Shown: positions 4,030-60,676 of the stretch, in pieces
Numbering within the stretch: position 1 is the first letter of the stretch
Layout: each line of letters starts with the position of its first letter
NCBI GenBank assembly: GCA_036141575.1
Contig: JAYZXF010000017.1
Coordinates: 78,077 to 142,076, forward strand
Reading direction: 5' to 3'
DNA from: Pseudomonadota bacterium
Lineage (GTDB): Bacteria; Pseudomonadota; Alphaproteobacteria; UBA2136; JAPKEQ01
DNA length: 64,000 nt
Notes under the pieces: generated by a model
What the model saw: only the letters and a program-made list of their open reading frames with translations
Told to the model about the DNA's origin: nothing
The model's database searches: none
Position numbers and translations under genes: made by a program

Positions 4030-4263
4030 TTAGAAGGACTGGCCAATGGCTTTGGAAAGCGTGATGGTGTTTTCAGTCTGCTGCTGGATGAGTGCTGCAG
4101 CCAGCTTGGCTGGTGGCGTTGGTGCAAAGTTCACCATCAGGGCACTGCATTGACGCATAGGCGTAAAAACAAGTTGTTCTTGCGCTTGCCGTGTTACGTT
4201 GGCGTAAGCCTGCGTGTAAGTATGCATGGCTTGAAGAGTACCCAAAGGCGTAAATAGAGTCAT
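4030..4263 (-). CDS. small hypothetical protein
   Basis: 77-aa ORF inside the cluster. Weakly supported. Confidence 0.3.
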   Translation of the reverse strand: MTLFTPLGTLQAMHTYTQAYANVTRQAQEQLVFTPMRQCSALMVNFAPTPPAKLAAALIQQQTENTITLSKAIGQSF

Positions 4264-5636: not shown

Positions 5637-5951
5637 TTAGTTCATTTCCAGTGGAATTTTCACAAGGAAGCTCTGACCGTATGTTTTCTTCTTCGGATCA
5701 AATCCGCTGAGTTTAACGTACGAGTACGGGAAGCGACGGCTGCAAGCATCAACCTGCGTCATCACCCAGCTCGCGCTGACTTCTTTGTGCTCTGGAATTG
5801 GCCAGATTTTCCAGTACACCTCTTCAGGTGTTGGTGCATCTGAGAACTCAATCATTGGCACTTGGCCTTCTGCAAGCATGTTTTGTGCTTGCATGTGCAC
5901 TTGGTTACTCGTCAGAGGCGGTAGGAATGAAAATGTTTCAAAACGTCTCAT
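5637..5951 (-). CDS. RuBisCO small-subunit-like protein (divergent RbcS/CbbS homolog)
   Basis: 'ETFSFLPPLTSNQV...IEF...YWKIWPIP...VKLSGFD' aligns with RbcS 'ETLSYLPPLTTDQ...LEF...YWTMWKLP...IRIIGFD'. Located 15 nt downstream of the large-subunit-like gene. Confidence 0.8.
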   Translation of the reverse strand: MRRFETFSFLPPLTSNQVHMQAQNMLAEGQVPMIEFSDAPTPEEVYWKIWPIPEHKEVSASWVMTQVDACSRRFPYSYVKLSGFDPKKKTYGQSFLVKIPLEMN

Positions 5952-5966
5952 TGTTTTTATCCTTTC

Positions 5967-7670
5967 TTAGTCATCCAAACCTGGACGAGTGTCATCAGTT
6001 ACGGGTTTCAGTGGGGTTACAACTTTTGGCGCTGTTGTTGTTTCTTCAATCTTAGCACCTGTTGCTGCGTCACCTTTCACAACACCAAACAGGAAGGCTC
6101 CTTCGTTCCAGAATTCTAGAGCGGCTTTCAGTTCGCTGTTGTAGCGGGCTGCACGTTGTAGAATTGTACGACCGTCAACACTTAGGTTATGACCTTCACC
6201 ACGGGCTTGTGCAATGGCTTCAATCGCCGTACGGCAAGCTGTTGCACCGCTGCCTAGGCCCCAAGGGTGACCCATTACTGATCCACCACACTGGATGATC
6301 ATGTCATCGCCCATTGCGTCCATCAGGCGAGGGAAGTGCCATGGGTTGTGTCCACCACCCACAGCAGGCCATACAGTGGCACCACCTACAGAGGGTTGGT
6401 CAAACATGATACCTGTTTCAACAGATGTTTTTGGTGCATCTTCAACAAGCATATCAACAATACCTTTCACGTGACGGCGGTTACCCGTATCACCACGCAG
6501 TGGACTACCGATACTTACCATGTCACAACCTGTGAAGCGAAGAAGCTTCGCAATCAGGCCTTCTGTCATTGTTGCGCTCATGAGGCTACGTCCGCCCATG
6601 GCACCAATAATCACATCGTTGTTCTGACACCAGTTCACCATGCTTGCAAGAGCACTCCAGCCGACAGCAGAGCTATCAACAATCATCATGTTGATGCCAA
6701 GCTCTTTTGCATATTCTGCACGAGCTGTCATATCTTCAACTGTTGGGGCACTAATGTTCACAGCGTGGTATTTCACTTCGCCCGTTTCTTGCTGTGCAGC
6801 AAAGGCAGCTTCAGCCACAAAACGGAAGCGACGGCGCCAGCTATTGTCTGGCAGGCTGTGCATCATGGTTGGGTCGGCAGTCATATCTACACCGCCTTTA
6901 AGTGTTTCGTACACCGCACGGCCGTACATCTTAGGTGATAGGCCGTTCATTGGGCGCATTGTGCTACTTAGCAGTGGGCGACCGTACTTGCTGGCAAGGT
7001 CACGCATACCAATCACACCGTATGAAGGTGTTTTAAATGTACGTGCAAGCCCAACAGGAATGCGGGCATCAACAATACGTGCACCTGTAGATGTAATAGG
7101 GGCACTGATCACGCTAATAAGGCTGACCATAGAGCCTGCTTCTACCATTTCTTGTGGGATGATCAGGCTTACGTTAACTGTAGAGCTATCTACGCGCTTT
7201 GTTTCAAGCAGTTTTACTTGTGGCACTGTCTCGTGGTCTACAAGAGAACCTGTCCAGCTTTCCACCCAGTCACCGTTTGCTGCGCTTACAAGAAGGTTAC
7301 CGCATTCGTTTTGGCTGAATGTTGTGTTCTCGTACTGGTAGCTAACAAGGATGTCTTGTTCTGGGTTAAAGCCTTGGTCTTCCTTACGGCGACCACGTGA
7401 GTCTGGCTTTTCATCAGTCGTTGGGGCTGCTACGGCTGCAAATGATGTCGTGCCGCCTGTTAGGCTGTCTAGCGATACACCAAGAACCGTGGCGATTTTA
7501 ACCACGTTATCTAGAGAAGGGCTTACTTGTCCGCCAAGGATGCGTGAGAGCGTTGCCATCGACACACCAGACTGGCGAGACAGGTCAGATGCAGACATGC
7601 CGTTCTTTTCCAAAATCTTTTTTAGAGCCTCAGGTAGGTTGTAAGGGCTCTCTGTTGTTTTCTTTGTCAT
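5967..7670 (-). CDS. fusion protein: N-terminal XRE-family HTH domain plus RuBisCO large-subunit-like domain, with carboxylase active-site residues substituted (the ORF could alternatively start at 7715)
   Basis: HTH_3-like segment 'SASDLSRQSGVSMATLSRILGGQVSPSLDNVVKIATVLGVSLDSL'. RbcL-like blocks 'DILVSYQ', 'KYGRPLLSSTMRPMNG', 'YGRAVYETLKGGVDMTADP', 'GGGHNPWHFP', 'QCGGSVMGHPWG'. SD 'AAGGA' lies 7 nt before the ATG at 7668-7670. Confidence 0.85.
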   Translation of the reverse strand: MTKKTTESPYNLPEALKKILEKNGMSASDLSRQSGVSMATLSRILGGQVSPSLDNVVKIATVLGVSLDSLTGGTTSFAAVAAPTTDEKPDSRGRRKEDQGFNPEQDILVSYQYENTTFSQNECGNLLVSAANGDWVESWTGSLVDHETVPQVKLLETKRVDSSTVNVSLIIPQEMVEAGSMVSLISVISAPITSTGARIVDARIPVGLARTFKTPSYGVIGMRDLASKYGRPLLSSTMRPMNGLSPKMYGRAVYETLKGGVDMTADPTMMHSLPDNSWRRRFRFVAEAAFAAQQETGEVKYHAVNISAPTVEDMTARAEYAKELGINMMIVDSSAVGWSALASMVNWCQNNDVIIGAMGGRSLMSATMTEGLIAKLLRFTGCDMVSIGSPLRGDTGNRRHVKGIVDMLVEDAPKTSVETGIMFDQPSVGGATVWPAVGGGHNPWHFPRLMDAMGDDMIIQCGGSVMGHPWGLGSGATACRTAIEAIAQARGEGHNLSVDGRTILQRAARYNSELKAALEFWNEGAFLFGVVKGDAATGAKIEETTTAPKVVTPLKPVTDDTRPGLDD

Positions 7671-7684
7671 TAAATTTTCCTTAT

Positions 7685-7702
7685 ATGGTAGCGAGCTACC
7701 AT
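7685..7702. promoter_or_regulatory. perfect 18-bp palindrome ATGGTAGCGAGCTACCAT immediately upstream of the RBS of the HTH-RuBisCO-like gene; candidate operator
   Basis: Read directly: the halves atggtagcg and cgctaccat are exact reverse complements. Confidence 0.5.
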
Positions 7703-7916
7703 TACGGTTATTCATTTACCTATTAAATGTAGTATCGCACAGGCTGTGCTTTTGCACAAATGGAAATATTGCAGATGTGGAAGAATTTCAAGGGCTGAAA
7801 TCAAAAAAATATCAAAAAAATAAAGGTGACTTTGTTTTTGTTGACAAATTAAAGGTGGATTGTATGCTGCCCTGCAACATTTATCTTCTCTTTCTTTTTC
7901 TAGGAGTACTTAATCA

Positions 7917-10275: not shown

Positions 10276-10851
10276 TTAGTCGTTGTTGCCGAATGGGTTG
10301 ACGCCGCCATCTTCACCAGTCTCGAAAGTCTGGCTGGTTGCGGCGCTGACCACCGGAGCACAGACGCTGCCGGGCTCTTTTTGCTTCGGGTCGACCTTGG
10401 CCGGGAAGTTCATCAGGCCGTAGACCAGGTTGCCGGGGAATTTCTCCAGCGAGTTGGTGTAGGCGACGCACTTGTCAATCAGCAGTTTCTGCGCATTGGC
10501 GAAGGTGGTCCGGCCGATTTCGATCTGATCCTGAATGGTTTTGTACAGGGTCATGTCGACTTCGGGGTTGTCTTCGGTCAGGGCCAGCAGCAGGGCGCTG
10601 GCACCGCCATCACCGTAGCGGTTCTGGAGTGCACCAGAAATCACTTCTGCGACCGCGTCCTTGTAGGCATCGGCCACGCCAGCGGATTCGGTCACCGACT
10701 GAGCGAACGCGTTGTATTTGATTTTGTTTTCATCGTAGGTGCCCATGATGCCATTCTCATGGCTGATGCCGGTGTTGTACGTGGAAATGGCCACGCCACC
10801 TGCCAGAGCCAGAGGGACTGCGACGATTGCTGCGATAATAAGACCTTTCAT
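10276..10851 (-). CDS. hypothetical exported protein encoded by a markedly GC-rich gene (ORF extends to 10920; likely start is 'MKGLIIAAIVAVPLALAGG')
   Basis: N-terminal hydrophobic signal or TM segment. GC is visibly about 58-60% against about 46% for the window. Confidence 0.5.
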   Translation of the reverse strand: MKGLIIAAIVAVPLALAGGVAISTYNTGISHENGIMGTYDENKIKYNAFAQSVTESAGVADAYKDAVAEVISGALQNRYGDGGASALLLALTEDNPEVDMTLYKTIQDQIEIGRTTFANAQKLLIDKCVAYTNSLEKFPGNLVYGLMNFPAKVDPKQKEPGSVCAPVVSAATSQTFETGEDGGVNPFGNND

Positions 10852-17667: not shown

Positions 17668-17700
17668 AAAACAAAACAGCCCCGAAGGGCTGTTTAGGTT
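17668..17700 (-). terminator. terminator hairpin 'aacagccccGAAgggctgtt'
   Basis: Perfect stem downstream of paralog 2. Confidence 0.6.
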
Positions 17701-17703
17701 CGT

Positions 17704-18276
17704 TTATTGGTCCCAGTAGACCCGCTGGTGCGGTTCTTGGCTCCAATAGTCTTCAAATGTGCCACCTGTATGGAGCAGGCCACGTTTGACGAGCTGCTGA
17801 ATGCCTTGTATCTCTGTGGGAGAAAGCTGGCTTTCGCGACGGCGAGGGGAACCTTCCTCTACCTCATAAAACCAGTGATAAATGCCCGTTTCCGGCTGAA
17901 AAATGAGAGCGCTTGCTTCACGGTGCTGAATGGCACGCAGAAGAGGAATCACGTTCTGTTCTTCTTTGCTGAAGGCGCGAGGGGTCACAAATGGTTCAGG
18001 GTTTGCGTGGATATAGTTCCCCAAAATAACCTGAAAAAGGGGCAGGCCTTCTACGTAACGGCCTTTTGTTGAGAGGGTTGTGAGTGCGTTACAAGCAAAG
18101 GCTTCGCACAGCACTTGCCAGTCTCGCAGGCTAATAGCAGGCAGTTTGGATTCACCAAGATGACCCTGCTTTTTAGGCTGGTTGATGTAAACGCCATGTG
18201 AGACTGTGATGAAGAATTGAACATCCATCTCATGGATGCGCTTCACCATTTCAGCAACCGCTTGAGATTGAGACAT
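17704..18276 (-). CDS. hypothetical protein, tandem paralog 2 (EWQxLC family; ORF extends to 18396)
   Basis: 'ISLRDWQVLCEAF' and 'TEIQGIQQLVKRGLLHTGG'. The likely start 'MSQSQAVAEMV' places the 18365-18380 hairpin in the intergenic region. Confidence 0.55.
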   Translation of the reverse strand: MSQSQAVAEMVKRIHEMDVQFFITVSHGVYINQPKKQGHLGESKLPAISLRDWQVLCEAFACNALTTLSTKGRYVEGLPLFQVILGNYIHANPEPFVTPRAFSKEEQNVIPLLRAIQHREASALIFQPETGIYHWFYEVEEGSPRRRESQLSPTEIQGIQQLVKRGLLHTGGTFEDYWSQEPHQRVYWDQ

Positions 18277-18357
18277 GTGAGATCCTTTCAGAAAAGGGAG
18301 GGAGATGTAAGATGTTGGGATTGTATTCAGTTTGGTGGTGTTATGCAAGTACACAAA

Positions 18358-18388
18358 TGAAAAACAGCCCCGAAGGGCTGGTAATAAT
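18358..18388 (-). terminator. terminator hairpin 'cagccccGAAgggctg' after paralog 3
   Basis: Same hairpin type as at 17675. Confidence 0.55.
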
Positions 18389-18392
18389 CGCT

Positions 18393-19121
18393 TCAATCAT
18401 CTGCCGTCCAGAACGAAAAGATGCTCTGAGCTTCGAGGTGATAGTAAGGGGTCTTTTCACCAAGGGTGACAACGCCTTTATCAATCAGGCTTTGTAGAAT
18501 GACCATTTCATTCTCATCAAAGTCAAGCTCAACGCCCCAGTCGCCTGCAAACCAAACACCATGGTAGGGTTTGTTGTCTCTCCATTTATGGATCAGGCAG
18601 CAGGCATTCATATGCTCTGATGTAGAGTAAGCGTCATGGTCTTCCATGAGGTGAGAGGTGTCTTCGCCTGCATCCTCTGCGGCGTAGTACTCCTTAATGC
18701 ACCCCCGCTTAACATGCTGACCAGCAGGGAAGTGCCGTACGCGCGGGCCTGCGCCTGTCATGGCTTTAAGGAGCATGATCTCATCATTGCTGAGAGCTGT
18801 TGGCGAGGCTGGAGGCGGCGTTTCGGGCCTGTCGAGCGCGGACGCCTCAAGAATTTGATAGAATGTGGCGCCTTGCTCTTTCATGAGGCTAAGCTTCCAG
18901 TTACTATTTAAATGGGCGCGACCATCAGAGATGATTTTGCAGAGAAACTGCCACTCTTCAAGTGTAACGGGGAGTAGGTCGTCTTCATTGACGGGCACAT
19001 TTTCTTGGGTGTTCTGTGCAGCAAGTTTATATGCTCTTGTGTCTGACACAAAGTAGTAGCACAGCTGTTTTTCAATGCTGGCAACAATGTACTCTTCAAG
19101 GGCGATGCCTGAAAGTTTCAT
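18393..19121 (-). CDS. hypothetical protein, tandem paralog 3 (EWQxLC family)
   Basis: 'VTLEEWQFLCKII' and 'ENEMVILQSLIDKGVVTLGEK'. Confidence 0.55.
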   Translation of the reverse strand: MKLSGIALEEYIVASIEKQLCYYFVSDTRAYKLAAQNTQENVPVNEDDLLPVTLEEWQFLCKIISDGRAHLNSNWKLSLMKEQGATFYQILEASALDRPETPPPASPTALSNDEIMLLKAMTGAGPRVRHFPAGQHVKRGCIKEYYAAEDAGEDTSHLMEDHDAYSTSEHMNACCLIHKWRDNKPYHGVWFAGDWGVELDFDENEMVILQSLIDKGVVTLGEKTPYYHLEAQSIFSFWTADD

Positions 19122-19239: not shown

Positions 19240-20031
19240 TTGTGTATCATCCGGCTCATGGCATACCACATTACCATCTTCACACAAGATAACACCAGCA
19301 GAGGCGGGCGTCATTTTAAGATCCGTAAACCTTTGTTTTGGATATGCTTAATGCTGTTTTTGGTGCTGCCATCTCTGGCGCATTACACAATTATTTTCCA
19401 CATTATGCCAACGTACGCCGTTAAAAAGGCGCAGGGTATGGAAGAAGAGATTACAGGCCTAGCCAGTGGTGTATATACTCTGGAAGAAGAGAACACTCTT
19501 CTAAAGGCGAGGCTCAAGAGCATTACAACAGAGCTTGAAGAAGAGCAGGCTGTACGTAGTGAGCTTGCAGCCCGCATTGCCATTGCTGAAAATGCGCGTT
19601 CATCTTTTGCCAATAAAGCCCAGCAGCTTGAGCAAGAAGTGATTGATCTACGTGCCAGCACCAAGTTTTACGAAGATATTCTAAACCCATCAGAAACAGT
19701 GGGTGAGCTTCAATGTTATAACATTACCACCAGTCTGAATAAGGGAACGCTTAAGTATGGCGTCAATTTCCTCCATCAAAACCAGAACAATACAACGTCT
19801 AAAAAATATAAAATTGTTGTCAATGTGATGAGTGGTGTGAAAGCATCAGATCTTGAAAATATGGAAATTCAAGACGGCGATGATGTGAAAGAAGTGAAGT
19901 TCAAGAAGTCTTACACAATGAAGGGCAGTCTCGATGTGACTTTGCCTGATAATAAGCTCCGCATGCTTGATGTGCGTGCTTACAAAGATGGGACAAATGA
20001 GCTTGTCGGTCATTGCTGGAAAGCTTTCTAG
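19240..20031 (+). CDS. hypothetical coiled-coil protein (start uncertain)
   Basis: Heptad-like stretch 'LEEENTLLKARLKSITTELEEEQAVRSELAARIAIAE'. Confidence 0.45.
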   Translation: MCIIRLMAYHITIFTQDNTSRGGRHFKIRKPLFWICLMLFLVLPSLAHYTIIFHIMPTYAVKKAQGMEEEITGLASGVYTLEEENTLLKARLKSITTELEEEQAVRSELAARIAIAENARSSFANKAQQLEQEVIDLRASTKFYEDILNPSETVGELQCYNITTSLNKGTLKYGVNFLHQNQNNTTSKKYKIVVNVMSGVKASDLENMEIQDGDDVKEVKFKKSYTMKGSLDVTLPDNKLRMLDVRAYKDGTNELVGHCWKAF

Positions 20032-20142
20032 CATATATAAAAATCATCTTTTACACGCTTCATTGCTTATGTATTGGTCCATACATGGCGCTCTTTATCC
20101 TGCAAAAATTGCTTTTTTATATATGCTAGAAATATATTAAAA

Positions 20143-20348
20143 GAAGTCTTCGTGGTGCTTCATAAACGAGTGCGTAGTGAAGCGGAGCCAAAACCTTAAG
20201 AGGTTTTGAGCGGTTTAAAGCATTTAAAAATAAGGCGGAGCATTATTTTTGAAAGTAAGGGGTTTAAACCAAGACCATGCTTTGCGAGTTATCGCCTTTT
20301 TGGAGCAGCGTAGCGAATGAAAAAAGCGAGAACATGAAGCAAAGAATT
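20143..20348. repeat. intergenic repeat element, module B copy (near-identical to 58357-58555)
   Basis: Shared string 'gagccaaaaccttaagaggttttgagcggttt(a/g)aagca.ttaaaaataag...ggtttaaaccaagac...ctttgcg.g.tatcg.ctttttgga/agcag...gaatgaaaaaagcgaga'. Confidence 0.8.
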
Positions 20349-20467
20349 AAGAAATCTCTGATTGGAATTTATCCGCATATTTGCTATATTAAGAAGGTTA
20401 AGGGACGCGCATTCTGTAGCGTTCTTGGGGAAAAATAACAATTATAATGCGTTAAGGGAAACACTTC

Positions 20468-26485: not shown

Positions 26486-26818
26486 ATGCTACTCACAACA
26501 ACACCTTATGTTGAAGGTTACACCATTCGCCGTTACGGCCCAATGGTAGCCAGTGAAGCGGTCATGGGTACCAACCTGTTTAAGGATTACTTTGCAAAAG
26601 TACGTGATATTGTTGGTGGACGCTCTGGTGCGTTCCAAAATGCTCTTGCAGATGCGCGTGAATCTATTCTTCATGAAATCCAAGTGCAGGCTCAGCAATC
26701 TGAGTGTAACGCCATTATCGGTATTGATATTGACTACGGTGAGGTATCAGGTGGTGATAAGACAATGCTTCTTGTTGCTGCAACAGGTACAGCGGTTTAC
26801 ATTGAGCCGATTACTTAG
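26486..26818 (+). CDS. YbjQ/UPF0145 family protein
   Basis: 'MLLTTTP.VEGY.I..Y.G.V.SE.V.G.N.F.D......D..GG.S..' and a C-terminal 'ATGTAV' pattern. 110 aa. Confidence 0.75.
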   Translation: MLLTTTPYVEGYTIRRYGPMVASEAVMGTNLFKDYFAKVRDIVGGRSGAFQNALADARESILHEIQVQAQQSECNAIIGIDIDYGEVSGGDKTMLLVAATGTAVYIEPIT

Positions 26819-26825
26819 TTTTTTG

Positions 26826-27012
26826 TAGCTTGCTTCCTGTCTTTTATTTTTCAAATATAAAATTTGTAAAATAAAATTCAACGCAAGCTAGAGTCTTGGT
26901 TTAAAACCTTCCTTGTAAAAACAGTACTCCGTCCTGCTTTTAGCTTTTTTAAACCGCCCAAAACGCCTGAACGTTTTGGTTCGGCTACTCGCCTCACACT
27001 CTCATAGGCCAA
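26826..27012. repeat. intergenic repeat element copy: module A hairpin core (26842-26876) plus an inverted fragment of module B (26973-27012)
   Basis: 'ttttatttttcaaatataaaatttgtaaaataaaa' matches the palindromic core of the 58160-58220 hairpin. 'gttttggttcggctactcgcctcacactctcataggccaa' is the reverse complement of 58357-58396. Confidence 0.7.
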
Positions 27013-27295
27013 CACTTCTATTGTGTCCTAGTACTTTGCGGAGCAAAGCGCAGCCGGCGCTTAAGGGCGCCGAGCGCAAAGGTACAAAGTAGGGTAAGCT
27101 GCAGAGCAGCCGTGCCTTTGCAAGATATAAATAAGGTGTTAAATGGCAGGCAGTGTGTCTGTGCGCAGGGCACCGCCTCAACCTGACAGGCCGAGAGTCA
27201 AGAAAGGAAAAAATAACCAAAACAGCTCTTGTCACTTAGGCAGATACACGTTAGTTTATTCCACATTCAAAAGTTTCAAAAATAAGGGATAAGTC

Positions 27296-30824: not shown

Positions 30825-32240
30825 ATGCTAAATAGTTATTTTGAAACAATTAAAAACACTTTAAATCTAAATGCAGATGCCTTTGCGCTGCTGTATCTAG
30901 CTTGTGGTGTTCTCTTTATTCTTGGCCTGAAAGGTCTCTCACACCCACGCAGTGCTCGCCGTGGTAACTTGCTTGCGATGCTCGGTATGGGCCTTGCGAT
31001 TCTCACAACGCTGATGCATCCAAGTGTCACTGACTACACATGGATCGTTGCGGGTATTGTTGCTGGTGCCATTGTGGGTGTGCCGATTGCCCTTAAAATT
31101 AAAATGACCTCTATGCCGCAGCTTGTGGCAATCCTCAACAGCTTTGGTGGTCTTGCTGCAGCCCTTATTGGTATCGGTATGCACTTTGCGCTGGCTGGTG
31201 ACACAGCAGGGGACCGCACAGAGATCTTTATGGGTGCATGGATTGGTCTACTTACATTCAGTGGTTCTATCATCGCTTTCTCTAAGCTGAGTGGCTACAT
31301 GAAGAGCGCAGCGATTACCTTCCCAATGCAGCACGTGTTTAACCTACTTGTTGGTTTTGCGATGATTGCAACGGGTGTGCTCTACATTCAGCACGGTGAT
31401 GTCAACATGCTGTACGCATTTGCAGCCATCGCTTTTGTACTTGGTATTCTCATTATTATTCCAATCGGTGGCGCAGATATGCCAGTGGTTGTGAGCCTTC
31501 TCAACAGTTATAGTGGTTGGGCAGCTGTGGCAACAGGCTTCACGCTTGAAAACACGCTTCTTATCATCACTGGTTCTGTTGTCGGGTCTTCTGGTGCCAT
31601 CCTGACGTACGTAATGTGTAAAGCGATGAACCGTAGCTTCTTTAACGTTCTGCTTGGCGGTTTTGGTGCTGACGATGATGCAGGCGCAGCAGCTATGGCG
31701 ACAGGTGGTACAGTTAAGCAAGCCAGCGCAGACGATGCAGCCTTCATGATGGAAAACGCAAACAGCGTGGTTGTTGTACCGGGTTACGGTATGGCGGTGG
31801 CGCAAGCACAGCATGCTCTACGTGAGGTGATGGATATTCTGGATGAGAAGAACATTAAAACACGCTTTGCCATTCACCCTGTTGCGGGTCGTATGCCAGG
31901 GCATATGAACGTTCTTCTCGCTGAAGCAGATGTACCATATGAGAATGTGGCTGAAATGGATAATATCAACGCAGACTTCTCAACAACAGATGTTGTGTTG
32001 GTAGTGGGTGCAAACGATGTTGTGAACCCTGACGCCAAAAATGTGAAGAGCAGCCCACTATACGGTATGCCGATTCTTGAAGCGTACAAAGCGAAGACAG
32101 TTTACGTTGTAAAGCGTAGCATGAACGCAGGTTACGCAGGCGTAGATAACGCACTCTTTACAATGGATAACACCTCTATGATCTTTGGAGACGCCAAGGA
32201 AGTTGCAGAACGCCTTGCCGCCGCTCTTAAGATGAACTAG
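30825..32240 (+). CDS. pntB: NAD(P) transhydrogenase subunit beta
   Basis: 471 aa with a polytopic N-terminus and a C-terminal dIII NADP-binding domain ('VVVPGYGMAVAQAQH', 'VLLAEADVPY'). Confidence 0.9.
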   Translation: MLNSYFETIKNTLNLNADAFALLYLACGVLFILGLKGLSHPRSARRGNLLAMLGMGLAILTTLMHPSVTDYTWIVAGIVAGAIVGVPIALKIKMTSMPQLVAILNSFGGLAAALIGIGMHFALAGDTAGDRTEIFMGAWIGLLTFSGSIIAFSKLSGYMKSAAITFPMQHVFNLLVGFAMIATGVLYIQHGDVNMLYAFAAIAFVLGILIIIPIGGADMPVVVSLLNSYSGWAAVATGFTLENTLLIITGSVVGSSGAILTYVMCKAMNRSFFNVLLGGFGADDDAGAAAMATGGTVKQASADDAAFMMENANSVVVVPGYGMAVAQAQHALREVMDILDEKNIKTRFAIHPVAGRMPGHMNVLLAEADVPYENVAEMDNINADFSTTDVVLVVGANDVVNPDAKNVKSSPLYGMPILEAYKAKTVYVVKRSMNAGYAGVDNALFTMDNTSMIFGDAKEVAERLAAALKMN

Positions 32241-32251
32241 AGAGATACAAA

Positions 32252-38656: not shown

Positions 38657-38727
38657 ACGGCGCCTTTAAGCGAAGTTTTATGGTATCTGTCTCGTGTTGT
38701 GATAATAAACTCTGCGCTCAGATTTTT

Positions 38728-38890
38728 CTTTGCTTGCTTTCCATCTTTTATTTTTCAAACATAAAGTCCAATGCAAGCTCTTGGAAAGCGTGAAGCATTC
38801 AACAGCATGGGCATTTTCAAGATAACCTTCACGGGGGCTATCATTTTACAAATTTTACATTTGAAAAATGATAGGGTGAGAGTGAAGAAG
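38728..38890. repeat. intergenic repeat element copy (module A forward segment plus an inverted hairpin at 38827-38887)
   Basis: 'ttgcttgctttccatcttttatttttcaaacataaa' matches 26830-26870. The hairpin 'cttcacgggggctatcattttacaaattttacatttgaaaaatgatagggtgagagtgaag' is the reverse-orientation equivalent of 58160-58220. Confidence 0.7.
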
Positions 38891-38895
38891 AATAA

Positions 38896-41268: not shown

Positions 41269-42108
41269 ATGAGGTTATTTGCAATTGTATGTATGTGTTG
41301 CGCACTGTTTGTCAGTGTGGCAGCCGTTTCTCAAACACGTGCAGGTGAAGGACTTTCACGCCAACTTCAATCTGTAAAATCAATGCTTGAGAGTTTCCGT
41401 AGCCATATAGATGGTGAAATCGCTCGTGTGGATAGTGAAATTAATACAGTGGATAGCAGAGTAGATGCTGCAAATACTAGAATGGATACCATGGACGGTC
41501 GTATGGATGGTATAGACACTCAGATTGGTGGCCTAAACTCGAGTATTAATTCACACGATAACCGTATTACAGCCCTAGAAAATGGGGAAACAGGTGTGCA
41601 AGTTTACAGAAACTGTGCACAACGTAATGTGACATGGGGCAGTGGAAATTGCCGAGGTACGCAGGGGCCCATTCCTCATGGCACAAGTATAACGGTTAGA
41701 GACACCGTTCAAGGTGATATTTGTACAAATAGATATCAATATGTTGGCTATGCTGTGTATAGTTGTAATGATGGTGTGGTAACGCGTAACGGGCAAGCTT
41801 GTCAGCGAACAGATTTCTACAATGAAAATCTATGTGAATCTGGCAGTGGTGGCGATAGCTATGCAAACTGTCAAGGTACAACAAGGACATGGTCAGAAAC
41901 GTATAATGGTCTAACTTCAACCTGTTCTGGATCAATTGGTTCTGTGCCACATGGTACAACCGCTACAGCAACAGACCCTAGAACTGGTTGTGACCGTCGA
42001 GACTTCACAGGTGGATCATCGACTTGGCTATGTGATAATGGTACTCTCAGAAGACAAGGTACTGCAACATGTAGAACCTGGGGCAGCTGGGGTAGCGACT
42101 GTCGATAA
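41269..42108 (+). CDS. secreted protein, member E of the 'EG-ARQ' family, with two Cys-rich ~65-aa modules
   Basis: Signal peptide, 'GEGLSRQLQSVKSMLESF', a coiled coil, then modules 'C..RNVTWGSGNC.G..G...HG....D..C......G.....C.NG.......C' twice. Confidence 0.7.
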   Translation: MRLFAIVCMCCALFVSVAAVSQTRAGEGLSRQLQSVKSMLESFRSHIDGEIARVDSEINTVDSRVDAANTRMDTMDGRMDGIDTQIGGLNSSINSHDNRITALENGETGVQVYRNCAQRNVTWGSGNCRGTQGPIPHGTSITVRDTVQGDICTNRYQYVGYAVYSCNDGVVTRNGQACQRTDFYNENLCESGSGGDSYANCQGTTRTWSETYNGLTSTCSGSIGSVPHGTTATATDPRTGCDRRDFTGGSSTWLCDNGTLRRQGTATCRTWGSWGSDCR

Positions 42109-42288: not shown

Positions 42289-43374
42289 ATGAGAGCTTTT
42301 CCGATAGTAATGATTTTATCCTGTTTAGTTTTACTAACAGGCGTAGCTGGTGCGCAGAGCACGCGCTCTGGTGAAGGTATTGCAAGGCAGTTAATGTCTG
42401 TTAAAAGTATGATTGAAAATTTTGCTGATAACATCCGCACACGTGTGCAGACCGTTGAAAATGAAATGGATGCGGTAGAAACACGTATGGATACAGTGGA
42501 AGCTGATGTTGCAAGCGTACTTGCAACCGTTGCAACACATGAAACACGGTTGAGCTCGCATGATTCATCTCTATCTGGCCATGGTCGCCGTATTCGAGCA
42601 CTCGAAGAGCGCGAGCCAACAGGTGGTGGAGGTAGTACAGCACCAACACCAAGTGCGTGTAACGGTAGAAACATGTCATGGGGAGGGGGATGTAGTGCTT
42701 ATGTACAATCTCTACCTGATGGGGGTGCTGTCGTTCTGAGAGATCAAGTTGCTGGTGATGTATGTACAAATAGACAGCAGTATGTTGGTCAAGTTCGTGT
42801 GGCTTGTAACAATGGTCAAATTTCTACAAAGAACGCCTCTTGTGAGCTGAGAAACGTTTATAACGCAACTCAGTGTAGTGGTGGCACAACACCAACACCG
42901 AAGAAGAGATGTGCAGCAAAAGATGTGAGCTGGAAGAACAATGCTGGTACAGTCACATGTCGTGGTAGAATTGTTGCAGCTGATCATGATTCAACACGTC
43001 GTGTAACATTTGATAACAACAATACAAAACCTGGTGGAAAACGTATTACTGGTGCAGCAAACTTTATTTGTGACAACGGTGTGTTCAAACGTACATCTAA
43101 GAACTGTAAAGAAACTGTTAACCCTGAGCCTCCTAAGCCTTGTGCAGGCAAGTCTGTGAGTTGGACTAGTAATGGTGTTACATGTCGAGGAACTGTTTCG
43201 AATACGCCACATGGTTTAACTTCAAGTGTAACAGACCCTAACCGAACACGAGAGTGTGAGAACATTATAGATACAACAGGTAGCGCAAGCTTCAGGTGTA
43301 CAAATGGATCGTTCAAGAAGGTCTCTGGCTCTTGCAGGCAGGTACGGAGTCGTCGAACAGGTGACTGTCGATAA
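42289..43374 (+). CDS. secreted protein, member F of the 'EG-ARQ' family, with three Cys-rich modules
   Basis: Signal peptide, 'GEGIARQLMSVKSMIENF', then three modules ('CNGRNMSWGGGC...', 'CAAKDVSWKNNAGTVTC...', 'CAGKSVSWTSNGVTC...'). Confidence 0.7.
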   Translation: MRAFPIVMILSCLVLLTGVAGAQSTRSGEGIARQLMSVKSMIENFADNIRTRVQTVENEMDAVETRMDTVEADVASVLATVATHETRLSSHDSSLSGHGRRIRALEEREPTGGGGSTAPTPSACNGRNMSWGGGCSAYVQSLPDGGAVVLRDQVAGDVCTNRQQYVGQVRVACNNGQISTKNASCELRNVYNATQCSGGTTPTPKKRCAAKDVSWKNNAGTVTCRGRIVAADHDSTRRVTFDNNNTKPGGKRITGAANFICDNGVFKRTSKNCKETVNPEPPKPCAGKSVSWTSNGVTCRGTVSNTPHGLTSSVTDPNRTRECENIIDTTGSASFRCTNGSFKKVSGSCRQVRSRRTGDCR

Positions 43375-44104: not shown

Positions 44105-45106
44105 TTATTGAGGTTCACCATTATGCTCTTTAGAGAGTGGGTATTTTCCTTTTTTGTCTGGAATAGAGCCGTGGACAAGAATACCGTTTGCATAGTAAGT
44201 GTGGTCACCATCTAGCATAAGGTTGTAGAGGCGGCGGTCTTCTTCTTCCTGTGGGACAATCATGATGGATTCAATAAGCTGACGCTTGCCTTGTGCCATA
44301 ATGAGTGTTTGGCCAATTTCAAGCTGACCAATGTTACCAGAAAGTTGGTCGTAAGCTTCTTTCTCAGCCATATCTGGGTTAAGGGCCTTCCAGCCGTCTG
44401 TTGTCATAAGAGGGTGGTTATCTGTTGTAAAGGCAGTTTCACCGTTAATCTCAATAAGGTGCTGGTTTTTACCTTTGCGCAGAAGAGGGCGGTCAAGGTC
44501 TAGCACGGTGTTAATTGCACCGTCACGGCCCATCAGCTTATCACCAATTTTAACTTTATGAATTTCAAGGTCACTACCATCCGCCATAAGTACTTTTGTT
44601 TCAGCCGTAAAGCATGAGCCGCGGCAAACTGCTGCACAATTTTCCATACTATTAGGCGTTAGGTTTGTATTACAGCGGCAGGCACATCTCCACCCCACCC
44701 AAACTTGGTCGCTTGGGCATGTAGGAGGCGTGTAGGTGCCACCACCTGTTGGGCCTTCAATATCTGTATGTGTTACACAGTTATTGCTATCAGCATCTGG
44801 ATGGTTTGGCCAATACAGGCTTGTTGTTGATCTGTTATGGCAGAACGTTTGCCTATTAATAACTGTCTGGAGGTCTGAAATATCCGTTTGTGCTGTTGAG
44901 AGCTGTGTTTCTAGAGTGCTAATTCTAGAGCTCATGCCAGTAGACATGCTTTCCATCATGTTTTTAAGGGAGAGAACTTGCCTTGAAAGTGCTTCACCCG
45001 CACTTGTTTGTGCCCATACATTGGCAGCTAAAATGATTGTGCAAAGAGAGAGAAAGATTGCAATGGATTTAAGTATTTTACCCTTGAAAAACATAGTGGC
45101 CACCAT
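44105..45106 (-). CDS. secreted protein, member H of the 'EG-ARQ' family, with a C-terminal Hint (Hedgehog/intein-like, BIL-type) domain
   Basis: Signal peptide, 'GEALSRQVLSLKNMMESM', 'QTFCHNRSTTSLYWPNHPDADSNNC'. Hint blocks 'CFTAETKVLMADGS', 'TTDNHPLMT' and 'YNLMLDGDHTYYANGILVHGS'. Confidence 0.7.
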   Translation of the reverse strand: MVATMFFKGKILKSIAIFLSLCTIILAANVWAQTSAGEALSRQVLSLKNMMESMSTGMSSRISTLETQLSTAQTDISDLQTVINRQTFCHNRSTTSLYWPNHPDADSNNCVTHTDIEGPTGGGTYTPPTCPSDQVWVGWRCACRCNTNLTPNSMENCAAVCRGSCFTAETKVLMADGSDLEIHKVKIGDKLMGRDGAINTVLDLDRPLLRKGKNQHLIEINGETAFTTDNHPLMTTDGWKALNPDMAEKEAYDQLSGNIGQLEIGQTLIMAQGKRQLIESIMIVPQEEEDRRLYNLMLDGDHTYYANGILVHGSIPDKKGKYPLSKEHNGEPQ

Positions 45107-58062: not shown

Positions 58063-58154
58063 AGCGGCCTCCTGTGTCTAAAGTGAAGTTAAAGATAGTT
58101 CTAGTGAATAAATTATGGTGATGGTGAGGTGTTTATTCAAGATGTGTTGTTTTT

Positions 58155-58565
58155 TTACTCTTCACTTTCATTCCACCATTTTTCAAATTTAAAATTTGTA
58201 AAATGGTGGACCCCGTGAAGTAAGTCTTGGTGCGCAAGTTTTTAAGTATTTTAGGTCTGCTTACATCCCTAAAATAGCTCTTGTGCACCGCCGTAGCGTC
58301 TGAACGCTACGGCTCGCTTTTTCAGCTCGCGAAGTACTAGGAGATAACAGAGATATTGGCCTGATAGAGTGTGAGGCGAATAGCCGAGCCAAAACCTTAA
58401 GAGGTTTTGAGCGGTTTGAAGCAGTTAAAAATAAGACAGAGGATTATTTTTACTATAAATGCTTTAAACCAAGACTGTACTTTGCGGGCTATCGTCTTTT
58501 TGAAGTAGTGAAACGAATGAAAAAAGCGAGAGCGTAAAGCAAAGAGAGAAAAAGAGAGTCTAGGA
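58155..58565. repeat. full-length intergenic repeat element (module A hairpin 58160-58220 plus module B 58357-58555)
   Basis: Long hairpin 'cttcac tttcatt ccaccattttt caaatttaaaatttg taaaatggtgg acccc gtgaag'. Module B is near-identical to 20160-20345. Confidence 0.8.
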
Positions 58566-58596: not shown

Positions 58597-58633
58597 ATAA
58601 AAAAGCCACGCAATTGGCGTGGCTTTTTCTGGG
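58597..58633. terminator. terminator 'aaaaaagccacgcaattggcgtggctttttc' downstream of the helicase gene
   Basis: Perfect 9-bp stem, an A-run and a T-run. Confidence 0.7.
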
Positions 58634-58645
58634 GTTTAGGAACCG

Positions 58646-60676
58646 TTAGTTAAACACAGCAGTTGGGCCTTTGGCACCTGTGCCGCCTTTAAAACGTGCT
58701 TTTTTGAAAGCTGCGTTTGAGCCAGCGCCTTTGCTACCTTTAAAGCTACCGCCTTTGCCCTTAAATGGCTTGTTGCCAGCAGATGAACGATCATCGCCAT
58801 CACGCTTATTGAAGCCACCGCTCATGCGCTTACCAGCTGGTGTACCGCGTCCGCGTGTACCGTAAGTGCGTGCGCCATCATCCTTTTTGAATGGGCTCTT
58901 TTTACGTGTTGAGTCTGTTTGCGTCATGCGCTTCTTCTGCTTGTCGTGCATTTTAGCTGGTGCGCGAGACTCACTGCGATCTTCTCCGAAAGAACGGTTA
59001 CCATCGCGGTCGCCGAAGCTGCGCTTCTTGTCGCCGTAAGAGCGGTTACCATCGCGGTCGCCAAAGCTGCGCTTCTTATCGCCGAAAGAGCGGTTACCAT
59101 CGCGGTCGCCAAAGCTGCGCTTCTTGTCGCCGAATGAACGGTTGCCATCACGGTCACCAAAGCTGCGCTTCTTGTCGCCGAATGAACGGTTGCCATCGCG
59201 TTCGCCAAAGCTACGCTTCTTGTCACCGTATGAACGGTTGCCATCACGGTCACCAAAGCTGCGCTTCTTGTCACCGTAAGAGCGGTTGCCATCGCGGTCA
59301 CCAAAGCTACGCTTCTTATCACCGAAGTCGCGCTTGTTACCAAACTCACGCTTGTCGCCAAAGTCGCGCTTTTCAAATGAACGCTCACCATCTTTACGGA
59401 AGCTCTTACGCTCGCCGTCTTTTTTGAATGAACGTCTGTCATCTCTATCGCCGAAGCTACGCTTCTTATCGCCGTATGAATCACGGTTACCATCTTTAGC
59501 GCCGTAGCCGCCTTTGCGGTGTGATTTTGCCTTACGATCTTGGAATGTACGCTCTTTGCGAGGCTTAGATGTTGGTGCGTTAGATGTTTCACCACCCCAT
59601 ACAAGGCGTTCAATTGCTTTCCACTTGCCGTTTTCTTTCTTGGTAATGTACGCCAGAGCGTGACCCGTAGCACCGGCACGTGCTGTACGGCCAATACGGT
59701 GGATGTAATCTTCTGGGCATTGTGGAAGGTCATAGTTAATCACGTGCTGAATGTGAGGAATATCAAGACCACGTGCCGCAACGTCTGTTGCCACAAGGAT
59801 TTGGTATTTCTCTTTTCTGAATGCATCTGTTACGCGCTCACGTTTGTTGTGACGAAGGTCACCGTGGATTGCAGCTGCTTTAAAGCCTTCTTTCTTCAGC
59901 TTATCAGCCATGCGCTCAGTGCCGTACTTTGTCTTTACGAACATGATGATTGAGCCTTCACGGCCTGAGAGTTCACCAAGCAGGTCGTCGTACTTCTCAG
60001 CATCAGTCACGCGTTTTGTTTGGTGATCAATGTTTTCAGCAGGCTTTGTTGTTGCGCCAATGGCAATACGCTCAGGGTTGTTGAGGTAGTTCTTCGCAAG
60101 AGACATGATGTTCTTTGGAAGTGTTGCACTAAATAGAAGCGTTTGGCGCTCGGCTGGCATGTGGCTCACAATTTCTTCAATCTGAATGCTGAAGCCCATG
60201 TCGAGCATGCGGTCTGTTTCATCAAGAACCAGGAAGTGGCAGTTGTTAAGCTTGAGGCTGCGACGGTTCAGGTGGTCGTTAATACGGCCTGGTGTACCAA
60301 CAATAATACGTGGACGGAATGAAAGGCTTTTCAGCTGTTTGTGCATAGAGTCACCACCAATAAGTAGGCATGTGTTAATGCCAGAGCGGTGAGGGAGGAA
60401 GCCTTTAATGTTGTCTTGTACCTGCGCGGCAAGTTCACGTGTTGGTGTCACAACAATAGCTGTGTCTTCTTCGTTTTCAAGGAGGTGGTTCACCATCGGA
60501 ATACCGAAAGCACCTGTTTTACCCGTACCTGTTTGGGCAGAACCAAGGATATCGCGACCTTGCATCGCGAAAGGAATTGTTTTTTCTTGAATTGGAGTTG
60601 GAGATTCAAAACCCAGTTTTGTTAGGGCATGAGTCAAATCTTCAGAAAGCCCAAGTTGGGCGAATGTTTGCGTCAT
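58646..60676 (-). CDS. DEAD-box ATP-dependent RNA helicase (RhlE/DeaD-like) with a long repetitive RG/D-rich C-terminal tail
   Basis: Q-motif 'FESPTPIQ', motif I 'AQTGTGKT', 'DEAD' context 'LVLDETDRMLDMGF', motifs 'SAT' and 'ARGLD'. About ten tandem 'KRSFGDRDGNRS(F/Y)GD' repeats. Confidence 0.9.
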   Translation of the reverse strand: MTQTFAQLGLSEDLTHALTKLGFESPTPIQEKTIPFAMQGRDILGSAQTGTGKTGAFGIPMVNHLLENEEDTAIVVTPTRELAAQVQDNIKGFLPHRSGINTCLLIGGDSMHKQLKSLSFRPRIIVGTPGRINDHLNRRSLKLNNCHFLVLDETDRMLDMGFSIQIEEIVSHMPAERQTLLFSATLPKNIMSLAKNYLNNPERIAIGATTKPAENIDHQTKRVTDAEKYDDLLGELSGREGSIIMFVKTKYGTERMADKLKKEGFKAAAIHGDLRHNKRERVTDAFRKEKYQILVATDVAARGLDIPHIQHVINYDLPQCPEDYIHRIGRTARAGATGHALAYITKKENGKWKAIERLVWGGETSNAPTSKPRKERTFQDRKAKSHRKGGYGAKDGNRDSYGDKKRSFGDRDDRRSFKKDGERKSFRKDGERSFEKRDFGDKREFGNKRDFGDKKRSFGDRDGNRSYGDKKRSFGDRDGNRSYGDKKRSFGERDGNRSFGDKKRSFGDRDGNRSFGDKKRSFGDRDGNRSFGDKKRSFGDRDGNRSYGDKKRSFGDRDGNRSFGEDRSESRAPAKMHDKQKKRMTQTDSTRKKSPFKKDDGARTYGTRGRGTPAGKRMSGGFNKRDGDDRSSAGNKPFKGKGGSFKGSKGAGSNAAFKKARFKGGTGAKGPTAVFN
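58975..59335. repeat. 45-bp tandem DNA repeat (about 8 units) inside the helicase 3' region, encoding the 15-aa repeat
   Basis: Unit 'gtcgccgaa(a/t)ga(g/a)cggtt(a/g)ccatc(g/a)cggtc(g/a)cc(g/a)aagctgcgcttctt' repeats head-to-tail. Confidence 0.8.

What the first reader, a model, noticed from the sequence alone, without database searches (positions are those of the whole stretch)
58155..58565. About 400-bp intergenic repeat element family (four or more copies) whose hairpin core shows compensatory stem changes between copies
Related non-coding sequences occur at 20143-20348, 26826-27012, 38728-38890 and 58155-58565. The full copy consists of a long hairpin (58160-58220) built around the palindromic core 'tttcaaatttaaaatttgtaaaat', followed by a roughly 200-bp module ('gagccaaaaccttaagaggttttgagcggttt...gaatgaaaaaagcgaga'). 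The stem flanking the core differs between copies but stays complementary: 'ccaccat/atggtgg' at 58 kb, 'ctatcat/atgatag' at 38.8 kb and 'tttatttt/aaaataaaa' at 26.8 kb. This kind of covariation indicates selection on a hairpin structure, either RNA or single-stranded DNA, rather than on a duplex protein-binding site. Copies occur in both orientations and in partial or rearranged forms (26.9 kb carries an inverted module-B fragment). This is consistent with a MITE or IS200/IS605-type hairpin-end element, or with a structured sRNA family.
Basis: seen in the sequence. Interest (0 to 1): 0.7.

Follow-up and report, generated by a model that had tools for sequence, protein, structure and literature searches.

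The report
Structured, mobile intergenic repeat doublets
The four loci are copies of a previously undescribed non-coding repeat made of about 190-base units, often paired head-to-head. Each unit folds into the same four hairpins despite very different sequences, and the units come and go between closely related strains, so this looks like a new small mobile element or RNA whose mechanism is still unknown.

Summary
The four loci share sequence far beyond chance (BLAST E 1e-14 to 1e-41).

The "hairpin plus 200-bp module" at 58.1-58.6 kb is two divergent units, A1 (-) and A2 (+), whose 5' ends lie 20 nt apart. Each unit is: leader, P0, GAGCC, P1, GAGCGG, P2 enclosing P3, CCAAGAC, a long P4 hairpin, and an A-rich tail.

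- **Covariation:** all helices covary. In 19 units, 94.5% of cells are paired and 26 of 32 pairs change on both sides.
- **Other loci:** 26.8-27.2 kb is a second doublet. 20.0-20.4 kb is one unit plus a remnant. 38.7-38.9 kb is two P4 hairpins only.
- **Turnover:** relatives at 96-77% identity show insertions, empty sites and different variants at the same site.
- **Searches:** nothing in Rfam, plasmids, phages or viral contigs. No transposase was seen in the DNA inspected.
- **Distribution:** the family is confined to a narrow clade of uncultured bacteria labelled Magnetococcales.

Best reading (confidence about 0.4): a non-autonomous mobile element selected to fold as a single strand, organised like REPIN/BIME elements but with far more complex arms. 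A structured-RNA function is a serious rival.

The parts
58145..58340 (-). Unit A1, a type-1 arm. The core (leader, P0, GAGCC, P1 CCGTAGCG/CGCTACGG, P2 GGTGCACAA/TTGCGCACC, P3 TATTTTAGG/CCTAAAATA, CCAAGACT) lies at 58340->58221. The short tail runs into an A-rich flank.
   Evidence: The covariance model scores 104 bits, E = 2.6e-22. RNAfold gives -75.3 kcal/mol, z = -7.3, with the same architecture as A2. This arm is absent from the orthologous site in the 96%-identity strain.
58341..58360 (.). 20-nt centre between the 5' ends of A1 and A2 (GAGATAACAGAGATATTGGC). Its sequence and length are conserved in other doublets.
   Evidence: The same 20-nt gap occurs at 27008-27027 and in L063 at 4036-4055 and 10523-10542.
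58361..58556 (+). Unit A2, a type-2 arm. Core at 58361-58479, P4 (CTTTGC...GCAAAG) at 58480-58548, then a purine-rich tail.
   Evidence: The covariance model scores 131 bits, E about 1e-28. RNAfold z = -4.6. A bidirectional terminator at 58600-58628 follows 45 nt downstream.
20160..20356 (+). Unit B2, a type-2 arm. Core at 20160-20279, P4 at 20280-20348, then the tail.
   Evidence: The covariance model scores 105 bits. The same site holds a different full doublet in L063/L089 and no unit in L064/L073.
20030..20159 (-). Remnant of a partner unit: AAGACTT (20150->20144) followed by a different long hairpin (20127->20030; outer stem AGCATATATAAAAA/TTTTTATATATGCT). The hairpin starts right after the stop codon of the DUF6776 gene, whose final G is position 20031.
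   Evidence: An inverted self-match links 20040-20132 with 20116-20025. The interpretation as a 5'-truncated unit is inferred.
26816..27007 (-). Unit C1, a type-2 arm. The tail abuts the stop codon of the YbjQ-family gene.
   Evidence: The covariance model scores 123 bits. The orthologue in L063 is conserved. The site holds a terminator instead in L064/L070.
27008..27027 (.). 20-nt centre of doublet C.
27028..27233 (+). Unit C2. The leader and P1 are type-1. The 3' half is type 3: AAGATATAAATAA followed by ...GCAGGGCAC.
   Evidence: The covariance model found it although it was not in the seed alignment (31.5 bits, E = 2e-5). The 3' limit was taken from the comparison of filled and empty sites.
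38723..38785 (-). D1: a 5'-truncated unit consisting of CCAAGAG, a shortened P4 (GCTTGC...GCAAGC, 38778->38732) and the tail.
   Evidence: 84% identity to 26819-26861.
38816..38895 (+). It ends at the stop codon of the Hsp70-like gene.
   Evidence: D1 and D2 are conserved in L081. They are replaced by a terminator plus a 40-nt P4 remnant in L084/L085.

Best explanation
The loci belong to a lineage-restricted family of non-coding, non-autonomous mobile elements.

**What the element looks like (shown).** The full element is a doublet of about 400 bp: two homologous arms of about 190 nt placed head-to-head around a conserved 20-nt centre. Each arm is selected to fold on its own into P0, P1, P2 enclosing P3, and a long terminal hairpin P4. 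Single arms and forms with only the two terminal hairpins are deletion derivatives.

**How it probably moves (inferred).** The element is copied to new intergenic places, typically just after stop codons or beside terminators. A factor encoded elsewhere in the genome would do this by recognising shape and a few conserved junction bases (GAGCC, GAGCGG, CCAAGAC) on one folded strand. This would resemble the way REP/REPIN sequences are thought to be handled by RAYT (Y1/HUH) transposases through single-stranded DNA.

**Status of each step.** The fold, its covariation, the doublet layout and the turnover between strains are shown. The single-stranded intermediate and the trans-acting enzyme are inferred.
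For: **Fold and covariation**
- A1 and A2 have the same four-helix architecture, with every helix different in sequence.
- Across 19 units, 94.5% of cells are paired, against 70.7% when shuffled and at most 46% when slid. 26 of 32 pairs have changes on both sides.
- P4 covaries on alignments that were not fitted to any structure.

**Doublets**
- The 5' ends are exactly 20 nt apart in A, in C and in the site-B doublet of L063.

**Mobility and turnover**
- A single unit is present in L063 (96% identity). Both the window and an 89%-identity outgroup have the empty site, so it is a derived insertion.
- In L068 a doublet sits between two pnt cistrons that are adjacent in three other genomes.
- In L084 a unit lies between the pntB stop codon and its terminator. 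That site is empty in the window and in L064.
- The A1 arm is absent in L057.
- Sites B and C carry different variants in strains of 94-96% identity.
- The orthologous 20 kb of L064, L073 and L076 has no units, although the organism of L073 has three elsewhere (L005).

**Partial copies**
- Most partial copies keep the outer hairpins (locus D, the remnant at locus B, L004).

**Strand asymmetry**
- Unpaired positions are 68% purine (40% A).
- G-U outnumbers A-C by 27 to 14.
- The P0 loop is GARNA.

**Not coding, not a known RNA**
- No ORF longer than about 12 codons was seen on reading A1 and A2 in unit orientation (no systematic ORF scan), and there are no Rfam hits.
Against: - The arms are about five times larger than REP sequences and far more complex. 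Their helices differ so much in sequence that one sequence-reading transposase could not recognise them all.
- The two arms do not pair with each other as REPIN arms do.
- No Y1/HUH, DDE, IS110, TnpB or reverse-transcriptase gene appears among the 30 window ORFs scanned or in the gene tables of relatives' loci. Whole genomes could not be searched.
- No common flank motif and no consistent target-site duplication were found. Filled and empty alleles are never a clean cut-and-paste: 24-85 nt of the empty allele is replaced each time.
- A-rich loops, a GNRA-like pentaloop and conserved loop motifs are more typical of a functional RNA than of a transposition intermediate.
- The orthologous copy C evolves no faster than other intergenic DNA (4.0% against 4.2%).
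Confidence: 0.4

Rival explanations
1. A family of structured non-coding RNAs or cis-acting RNA modules. Each unit would be transcribed, from read-through of neighbours or from a weak promoter in the centre. It would act as RNA, for example as a protein-binding scaffold or an mRNA-end stabiliser or insulator. Copy-number change would come from recombination between copies rather than transposition.
For: - Four covarying helices with conserved junction and loop bases.
- A GARNA pentaloop in P0, and unpaired positions that are 40% A.
- A G-U excess on one strand.
- By my reading of the downstream sequences, 6 of 16 units are followed within about 50 nt by a rho-independent terminator on the unit strand.
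- At sites C and D the element stands where relatives have a terminator.
- At site F the purine-rich tail lies just before the start codon.
- The divergence of copy C equals that of other constrained intergenic DNA.
Against: - No sigma-70 promoter within or before the units. Single units lack the centre altogether.
- The orientation relative to neighbouring genes is arbitrary.
- Truncated copies persist.
- Derived insertions occur at new sites, including inside an operon.
- There is no Rfam relative.
Confidence: 0.3
2. A classical MITE: an internal-deletion derivative of an insertion sequence, with the two arms serving as long diverged terminal inverted repeats, moved as double-stranded DNA by a DDE transposase.
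For: - Inverted arms, a conserved centre that could be a deletion junction, non-coding sequence of 400 bp, and minimal forms that keep both ends.
- One 8-nt direct repeat (GAAACTAT) flanks the L068 doublet.
Against: - A DDE enzyme gives no reason for compensatory changes in four internal helices across diverged paralogues.
- I found no target duplication on inspecting the junctions at sites A, B, C and E. Those junctions are imprecise, because part of each empty allele is replaced.
- Single arms insert on their own.
- The arms of one element are only about 60% identical.
Confidence: 0.1
3. An RNA-mediated mobile element: a SINE-like retroposon, or the RNA part of an unrecognised RNA-guided recombinase or nuclease, copied through an RNA intermediate.
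For: - Defined 3' ends with short A-rich tails of variable length (9-12 nt; C9A10 in L005), set against ragged 5' ends of single units.
- Most partial copies keep the 3' part.
- The strand asymmetry is RNA-like.
Against: - No reverse transcriptase, TnpB, IscB or IS110 gene was seen.
- Part of each A-rich tail belongs to the target, which is the A-tract beside a terminator.
- The conserved doublet centre argues that doublets are inherited as one piece.
- Retention of the 3' ends is equally explained by deletions spanning the centre.
Confidence: 0.1
4. Segments of rRNA-operon spacers, decayed genes or chance AT-rich palindromes.
For: None found.
Against: - No rRNA or tRNA in the window.
- BLAST E-values down to 1e-41.
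- Stop codons in all frames, and compensatory changes in the stems.
- Exact matches to the AT-rich core in metagenomes lack the flanking stems, and so serve as the chance controls.
Confidence: 0.01

Closest known systems
REP / BIME / REPIN elements mobilised by RAYT (TnpA_REP) transposases (PMC3116915, PMC3337134, PMC8266576)
   Same: - Extragenic and multi-copy, with palindromic units whose stems show compensatory changes.
- Units are paired in inverted orientation with a defined spacer, and the doublet is the likely replicating form.
- Single copies are decayed forms.
- They sit next to gene ends.
- No transposase lies inside the element.
   Different: - The units here are about 190 nt with four or five helices and conserved junctions, not a 20-40-nt hairpin.
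- The two arms fold separately and do not pair with each other.
- The helices are hypervariable between copies in one genome.
- No GTAG-like 5' tetranucleotide was seen, and no RAYT gene was found in the inspected DNA.
IS200/IS605-family ends and their gene-less derivatives (PATEs), including TnpB omega-RNA scaffolds
   Same: Hairpins near the ends, no terminal inverted repeats in a single unit, no evident target duplication, and strand-specific folding.
   Different: - No shared 4-5-nt target motif 5' of the units.
- The hairpins differ in sequence between copies and between the two ends.
- Inverted doublets are not a feature of this family.
- No tnpA or tnpB gene was seen, and there is no Rfam hit to HEARO or IS605-associated motifs.
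Bacterial MITE-like structured repeats (ERIC, Correia, BOX, RUP; review PMC10969869)
   Same: Size of 100-400 bp, intergenic, modular or mosaic copies, stable predicted folds, and effects on neighbouring transcripts are possible.
   Different: Those families have recognisable terminal inverted repeats, usually with target duplications, and near-identical copies. Here the copies share shape and junction bases while the helices differ.
Class C group II introns (from my own knowledge, not tested through a paper here)
   Same: Insertion just downstream of intrinsic terminators, and a structured RNA as the mobile agent.
   Different: The units are far too small, they lack domains V and VI (no Rfam hit), and there is no intron-encoded protein.

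Membership tests
REPIN/REP-RAYT | Unit is a short (about 20-40 nt) imperfect palindrome with a conserved 5' tetranucleotide | tested here: not met
   The units are about 190 nt with P0-P4.
REPIN/REP-RAYT | Two units in inverted orientation with a defined spacer, together forming one long hairpin | tested here: inconclusive
   Inverted doublets with a fixed 20-nt centre are present. The arms are only about 60% alike and fold separately.
REPIN/REP-RAYT | A single-copy RAYT (Y1 transposase) gene flanked by the repeats | not testable with these tools
   None was found among the 30 window ORFs scanned or in the gene tables of the fetched loci. Whole genomes could not be searched.
IS200/IS605-type element or PATE | Insertion 3' of a conserved 4-5-nt target, which flanks the left end of every copy | tested here: not met
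   The left flanks of six single units share no motif.
IS200/IS605-type element or PATE | Similar subterminal hairpins at both ends on the same strand, recognised by TnpA | tested here: not met
   P1 and P4 of one unit differ from each other, and each differs between copies.
IS200/IS605-type element or PATE | Autonomous relatives that carry tnpA and/or tnpB | not testable with these tools
   None in the inspected DNA.
DDE-type MITE | Terminal inverted repeats plus a target-site duplication of fixed length | tested here: not met
   I saw no duplication at sites A, B, C and E. One 8-nt repeat occurs at site F.
Known RNA family (Rfam 15) | A match to a curated covariance model | tested here: not met
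   No hit at gathering score in the window. Only chance-level hits appear at lenient thresholds in loci A, C and L005.
Independent sRNA gene | Its own promoter and terminator, defining a discrete transcript | tested here: inconclusive
   No sigma-70 consensus lies within or before the units. By my reading, a terminator follows 6 of 16 units. No expression data were available.
Integron attC site | R''-L''/L'-R' structure with a GTTRRRY core, in cassette arrays beside intI | tested here: not met
   The loci are scattered among housekeeping genes. No such core is present.

The most novel reading that the evidence does not exclude
The roughly 190-nt unit may be a new class of compactly folded bacterial RNA: four helices, a GNRA-like pentaloop and conserved purine junctions. 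This RNA would itself be the agent of its own spread. It could be retro-copied like a SINE, or it could serve as the guide or scaffold RNA of an unrecognised RNA-dependent recombinase. The head-to-head doublet would be its genomic form.
Probability: 0.15. Interest if true: 0.9.

Novelty: new variant of a known kind. Interest (0 to 1): 0.62.

Why it matters
Intergenic repeats selected for shape are known mainly as short REP hairpins. Here each arm is a multi-helix fold as elaborate as a small riboswitch or guide-RNA scaffold. Every helix is rewritten between copies in one genome, and the copies turn over between strains that are 96% identical.

If the fold is read as DNA, it would extend structure-dependent transposition to much larger substrates. 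If it is read as RNA, it would be a new structured RNA class tied to mobility.

The family is dense: 4 loci in 64 kb. It breaks short-read assemblies of this uncultured lineage, and it can sit inside operons and in place of terminators, so it probably shapes gene expression and genome structure there.

Tried and rejected
- **Known RNAs:** Rfam at gathering and at lenient thresholds found nothing. The tRNA/tmRNA scan found nothing.
- **Genome-contig scan** for the P1-junction motif: only two MAG loci, L004 and L005.
- **Metagenome scans:** the unit motif gave 0 hits. The AT-rich hairpin core gave 51 hits, all chance matches in AT-rich DNA without the flanking stems.
- **Viral contigs:** 0 hits, then 2 chance hits inside coding DNA that the covariance model rejects.
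- **Plasmid and phage BLAST:** no match.
- **Coding potential:** only trivial ORFs of 12 codons or fewer, by reading A1 and A2 in unit orientation. A type I toxin-antitoxin reading was rejected.
- **Promoter and terminator scans:** no unit promoter. The only promoter-like site at locus A belongs to the neighbouring 239-aa gene, just outside A1.
- **Substitution-rate test on orthologous copy C:** 4.0%, the same as other intergenic DNA (4.2%) and below four-fold sites (12.2%). It is uninformative about special constraint.
- **Motifs rejected by eye:** hammerhead-like CUGAUGA in the leader (not conserved), group II domain V resemblance of GAGCCGUA (wrong helix geometry, no Rfam hit), CsrA-type GGA loops (absent in the L005 units), and an IHF site in the AT-rich core (no match).
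- **Literature:** a search for the assemblies and runs found nothing.
- **Extending beyond the left end of the window:** two protein look-ups were not on record. The SecG look-up returned only the same strain.

Full report
**Context**

The window is a bacterial chromosome segment of about 45% G+C. It carries housekeeping genes: ribosomal proteins L13 and S9, class I aldolase, pntAB, TIM, SecG, a DEAD-box helicase and a two-partner secretion pair. Identical short-read contigs exist in Logan and NCBI assemblies. One contig of the same strain (L001) ends inside the repeat at 58415, and another (L066) starts inside unit B2.

The closest genomes are uncultured MAGs. One relative at about 79% nucleotide identity comes from the same run as a MAG labelled Magnetococcales (L005, L073-L075). 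Aldolase orthologues drop from 84% to 62% identity beyond this small clade.

**Observation**

Within the window, BLASTN gives E = 3e-41 (58.4 kb against 20.2 kb), 3e-32 (58.4 kb against 27.0 kb, inverted) and 9e-14 (58.2 kb against 38.9 kb, inverted). The quoted stems are correct.

**Anatomy**

Folding and alignment show two homologous units on opposite strands instead. On the + strand, 58361-58556 (A2) reads as follows:
- leader CUGAUAGAGUGUGA
- P0 (GGC-GAAUA-GCC)
- GA
- P1 (GCCAAAACC-UUAAGA-GGUUUUG(A)GC)
- P2 (GGUUUGAAGC/GCUUUAAACC) enclosing P3 (UAAAAAUAA/UUAUUUUUA)
- AAGACUGUA
- P4, a long hairpin with a 6-bp outer stem, an internal loop and an inner stem
- a purine-rich tail

On the - strand, 58340-58145 (A1) has the same order of elements, but every helix is rewritten:
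- P1 is CCGUAGCG/CGCUACGG.
- P2 is GGUGCACAA/UUGCGCACC.
- P3 is UAUUUUAGG/CCUAAAAUA.

Both units fold far better than shuffles, z = -7.3 for A1 and z = -4.6 for A2.

I built a covariance model of the core from six units. It recovered an unseeded seventh unit, C2 at 27028-27130, with E = 2e-5. It found nothing else in the window; the next hit had E = 0.16. The loci therefore read as follows:
- **58 kb and 27 kb:** both are head-to-head doublets, in opposite orientation. In each, the 5' ends of the two units are exactly 20 nt apart around a conserved centre. The same 20-nt spacing occurs in the site-B doublet of a relative.
- **20 kb:** one full unit (B2) plus what I infer to be a 5'-truncated partner, AAGACT followed by a different long hairpin.
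- **38.8 kb:** two terminal hairpins with CCAAGA stubs and about 30 nt between the stubs. I read this as an internal deletion of a doublet.

A third unit type occurs in relatives and in the 3' half of C2. It reads GAGCC-P1-GAUGC-P2-CUAAAUAUAAA...GCAGGGCAC.

**Covariation**

On 19 units aligned to the model:
- 94.5% of cells form pairs, against 70.7% in shuffles and at most 46% with slid partners.
- 26 of 32 pairs change on both sides, in 108 cells.

That alignment is fitted to the model, so I repeated the count for P4 on plain MAFFT alignments:
The outer helix is 100% paired, with 4 of 6 pairs doubly changed.
- The second P4 type (7 copies) is 92.1% paired against 85.6% shuffled, with 5 doubly changed pairs.

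The conserved bases lie in junctions and loops. They are GAGCC, GAGCGG, CCAAGA, a GARNA loop on P0, a UHAG-type loop on P1 and GRCGKAGYA in P3.

**Which strand folds**

In unit orientation, unpaired positions are 40% A and 27% G. G-U pairs outnumber A-C mismatches 27 to 14 once two loop-closing positions are set aside (p about 0.06, and the cells are not independent). The GARNA loop makes sense only on this strand. This points to the unit strand as the folded one. It does not separate RNA from single-stranded DNA.

**Turnover between relatives**

I fetched orthologous loci through proteins of the window. Nucleotide identity to the window is about 96% for L057, L063 and L081, 94% for L069, 89-90% for L064 and L068, and 77-79% for L073 and L076.

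| Site | Window | Relatives |
|---|---|---|
| A (58 kb) | Doublet A1 + A2 | The 96% strain lacks A1 and carries a different, type-3 unit where A2 is |
| B (20 kb) | B2 plus remnant | The 96% and 94% strains carry a complete doublet with different P1-P4. The 89% and 79% relatives have no unit |
| C (27 kb) | Doublet C1 + C2 | Conserved in the 96% strain. The 94% strain has a different unit. The 89% relatives have a rho-independent terminator instead |
| D (38.8 kb) | Two P4 hairpins | Conserved at 96%. In a relative whose Hsp70-like protein is 88% identical, it is replaced by a terminator plus a 40-nt P4 remnant |
| E (28.75-28.79 kb) | Empty | The 96% strain has a single unit. The 89% outgroup is empty too, so this is a derived insertion |
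| F (30.35 kb) | Empty (adjacent cistrons) | L068 has a doublet between two pnt cistrons, with both reading frames kept. The purine-rich tail lies just before the ATG, and an 8-nt repeat GAAACTAT lies at both junctions. Three other genomes are empty |

In L084 a single unit lies between the pntB stop codon and the A-tract of its terminator. That site is empty in the window.

No units occur in the orthologous 20-21 kb of L064, L073 and L076. Yet the organism of L073 has three units within 1.2 kb elsewhere (L005).

Outer ends often lie within 10 nt of a stop codon or beside a terminator. Filled and empty alleles never differ by a clean insertion: 24-85 nt of the empty allele is replaced each time. 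I could not define a general target duplication or a flank motif.

**What it is not**

- There are no Rfam matches.
- There is no rRNA or tRNA nearby.
- There is no coding capacity.
- There are no matches in plasmids, phages or viral contigs.
- Exact matches to the AT-rich hairpin core in metagenomes are chance hits without the stems.
- No transposase, recombinase or reverse-transcriptase domain was found among the 30 window ORFs scanned or in the gene tables of the fetched loci.
- No sigma-70 promoter lies in or before the units. The promoter-like site at 58140-58112 belongs to the neighbouring gene and sits just outside A1.

**Interpretation**

The following points are shown:
- This is a lineage-restricted, dense family, with 4 loci in 64 kb.
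- It consists of non-coding units kept in a four-helix fold by compensatory change.
- The units are usually arranged as asymmetric head-to-head doublets.
- Gain, loss and variant replacement occur between near-identical strains.

I think the most likely reading is a non-autonomous mobile element whose arms are recognised as folded single strands by a factor encoded elsewhere. In organisation it resembles REP/BIME/REPIN elements, which are thought to be moved by RAYT transposases (PMC3337134, PMC3116915, PMC8266576). It fails the membership tests on four counts: unit size and complexity, arm-to-arm pairing, a 5' tetranucleotide, and a cognate gene, which could not be searched for genome-wide.

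The main rival is a structured RNA with a function of its own. The A-rich unpaired regions, the GNRA-like loop, the conserved loops, the frequent downstream terminators and the replacement of terminators at two sites all fit that reading. The substitution rate of the orthologous copy C (4.0%) equals that of other intergenic DNA (4.2%) and is below four-fold sites (12.2%), so it does not discriminate. A DDE-type MITE and an RNA-mediated (SINE-like or guide-RNA) element remain possible at lower probability.

**Verdict**

The finding is real, and its structure claim is strongly confirmed and enlarged. It is a new family and an unusual variant of the structured intergenic repeat. Its mechanism is unresolved but testable with a whole-genome census and strand-specific transcript mapping.

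Noticed in passing
window 58935-59511 (- strand gene 58646-60676): The DEAD-box helicase has a C-terminal tail encoded by 7-9 tandem 48-nt (16-codon) repeats at 66-100% identity. The orthologue in the 96% strain is 660 aa instead of 676, so the length of this tail probably varies.
   Followed up: partly
window 5967-7715 (-), with 5637-5951 (-): The ORF as listed joins an N-terminal Cro/C1-type HTH domain to a RuBisCO large-chain catalytic domain (582 aa here, called as 567 aa in relatives). A RuBisCO small-subunit gene lies next to it. This is either an unusual fusion or a start-codon artefact.
   Followed up: partly
window 17673-18393: An extra 230-aa gene (17704-18396, -) is bounded by 33-nt direct repeats of a terminator hairpin (AAAACAGCCCCGAAGGGCTG, spaced 688 nt apart). 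The 96% and 89% relatives have one terminator copy and no such gene. The gene is a weak paralogue (22% identity) of its neighbour at 18393-19121.
   Followed up: partly
window 32234-32249 compared with L063 15894-16262 and L064: The window lacks a segment of about 370 nt, a small ORF lying between two similar GC-rich terminators, that both relatives carry. This looks like a deletion by recombination between the terminator hairpins.
   Followed up: partly
window 10223, 14844, 33843, 57306; 5028, 24904, 32250 (repeat families D5, D10, D11, I3-I11): Short GC-rich hairpins with A and T tracts (for example AAAGCCACCCCGAAGGGTGGCTTT) recur at gene ends. These are ordinary bidirectional rho-independent terminators, not part of the repeat family.
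   Followed up: yes
window 41269-42108 and 42289-43374 (+); 44105-45106 (-): Two adjacent paralogous coiled-coil genes share repeats D9, D12 and D16. A Hint-domain protein lies nearby, and this region varies in gene content among relatives (L081 compared with L084).
   Followed up: no
L068 4338-4689: The doublet inserted between the pnt cistrons is flanked by an exact 8-nt direct repeat, GAAACTAT. It is the only candidate target-site duplication seen, and it may be chance.
   Followed up: partly
L005 300-330 and 1150-1180: In the Magnetococcales-labelled MAG, both units end in a C-run followed by an A-run (C9A10 and C6ACA7) before the next terminator. These homopolymer tracts are not seen in the window's copies.
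   Followed up: no
P3 loops and the apical loops of the second P4 type (e.g. window 58510-58520, 20308-20320; L005 205-215): The same loop motif, GCG(G/U)AGC, recurs in P3 and at the tip of one P4 type. It includes TAGCGA and TAGCGT. It may be a shared binding site, and its significance was not tested.
   Followed up: no
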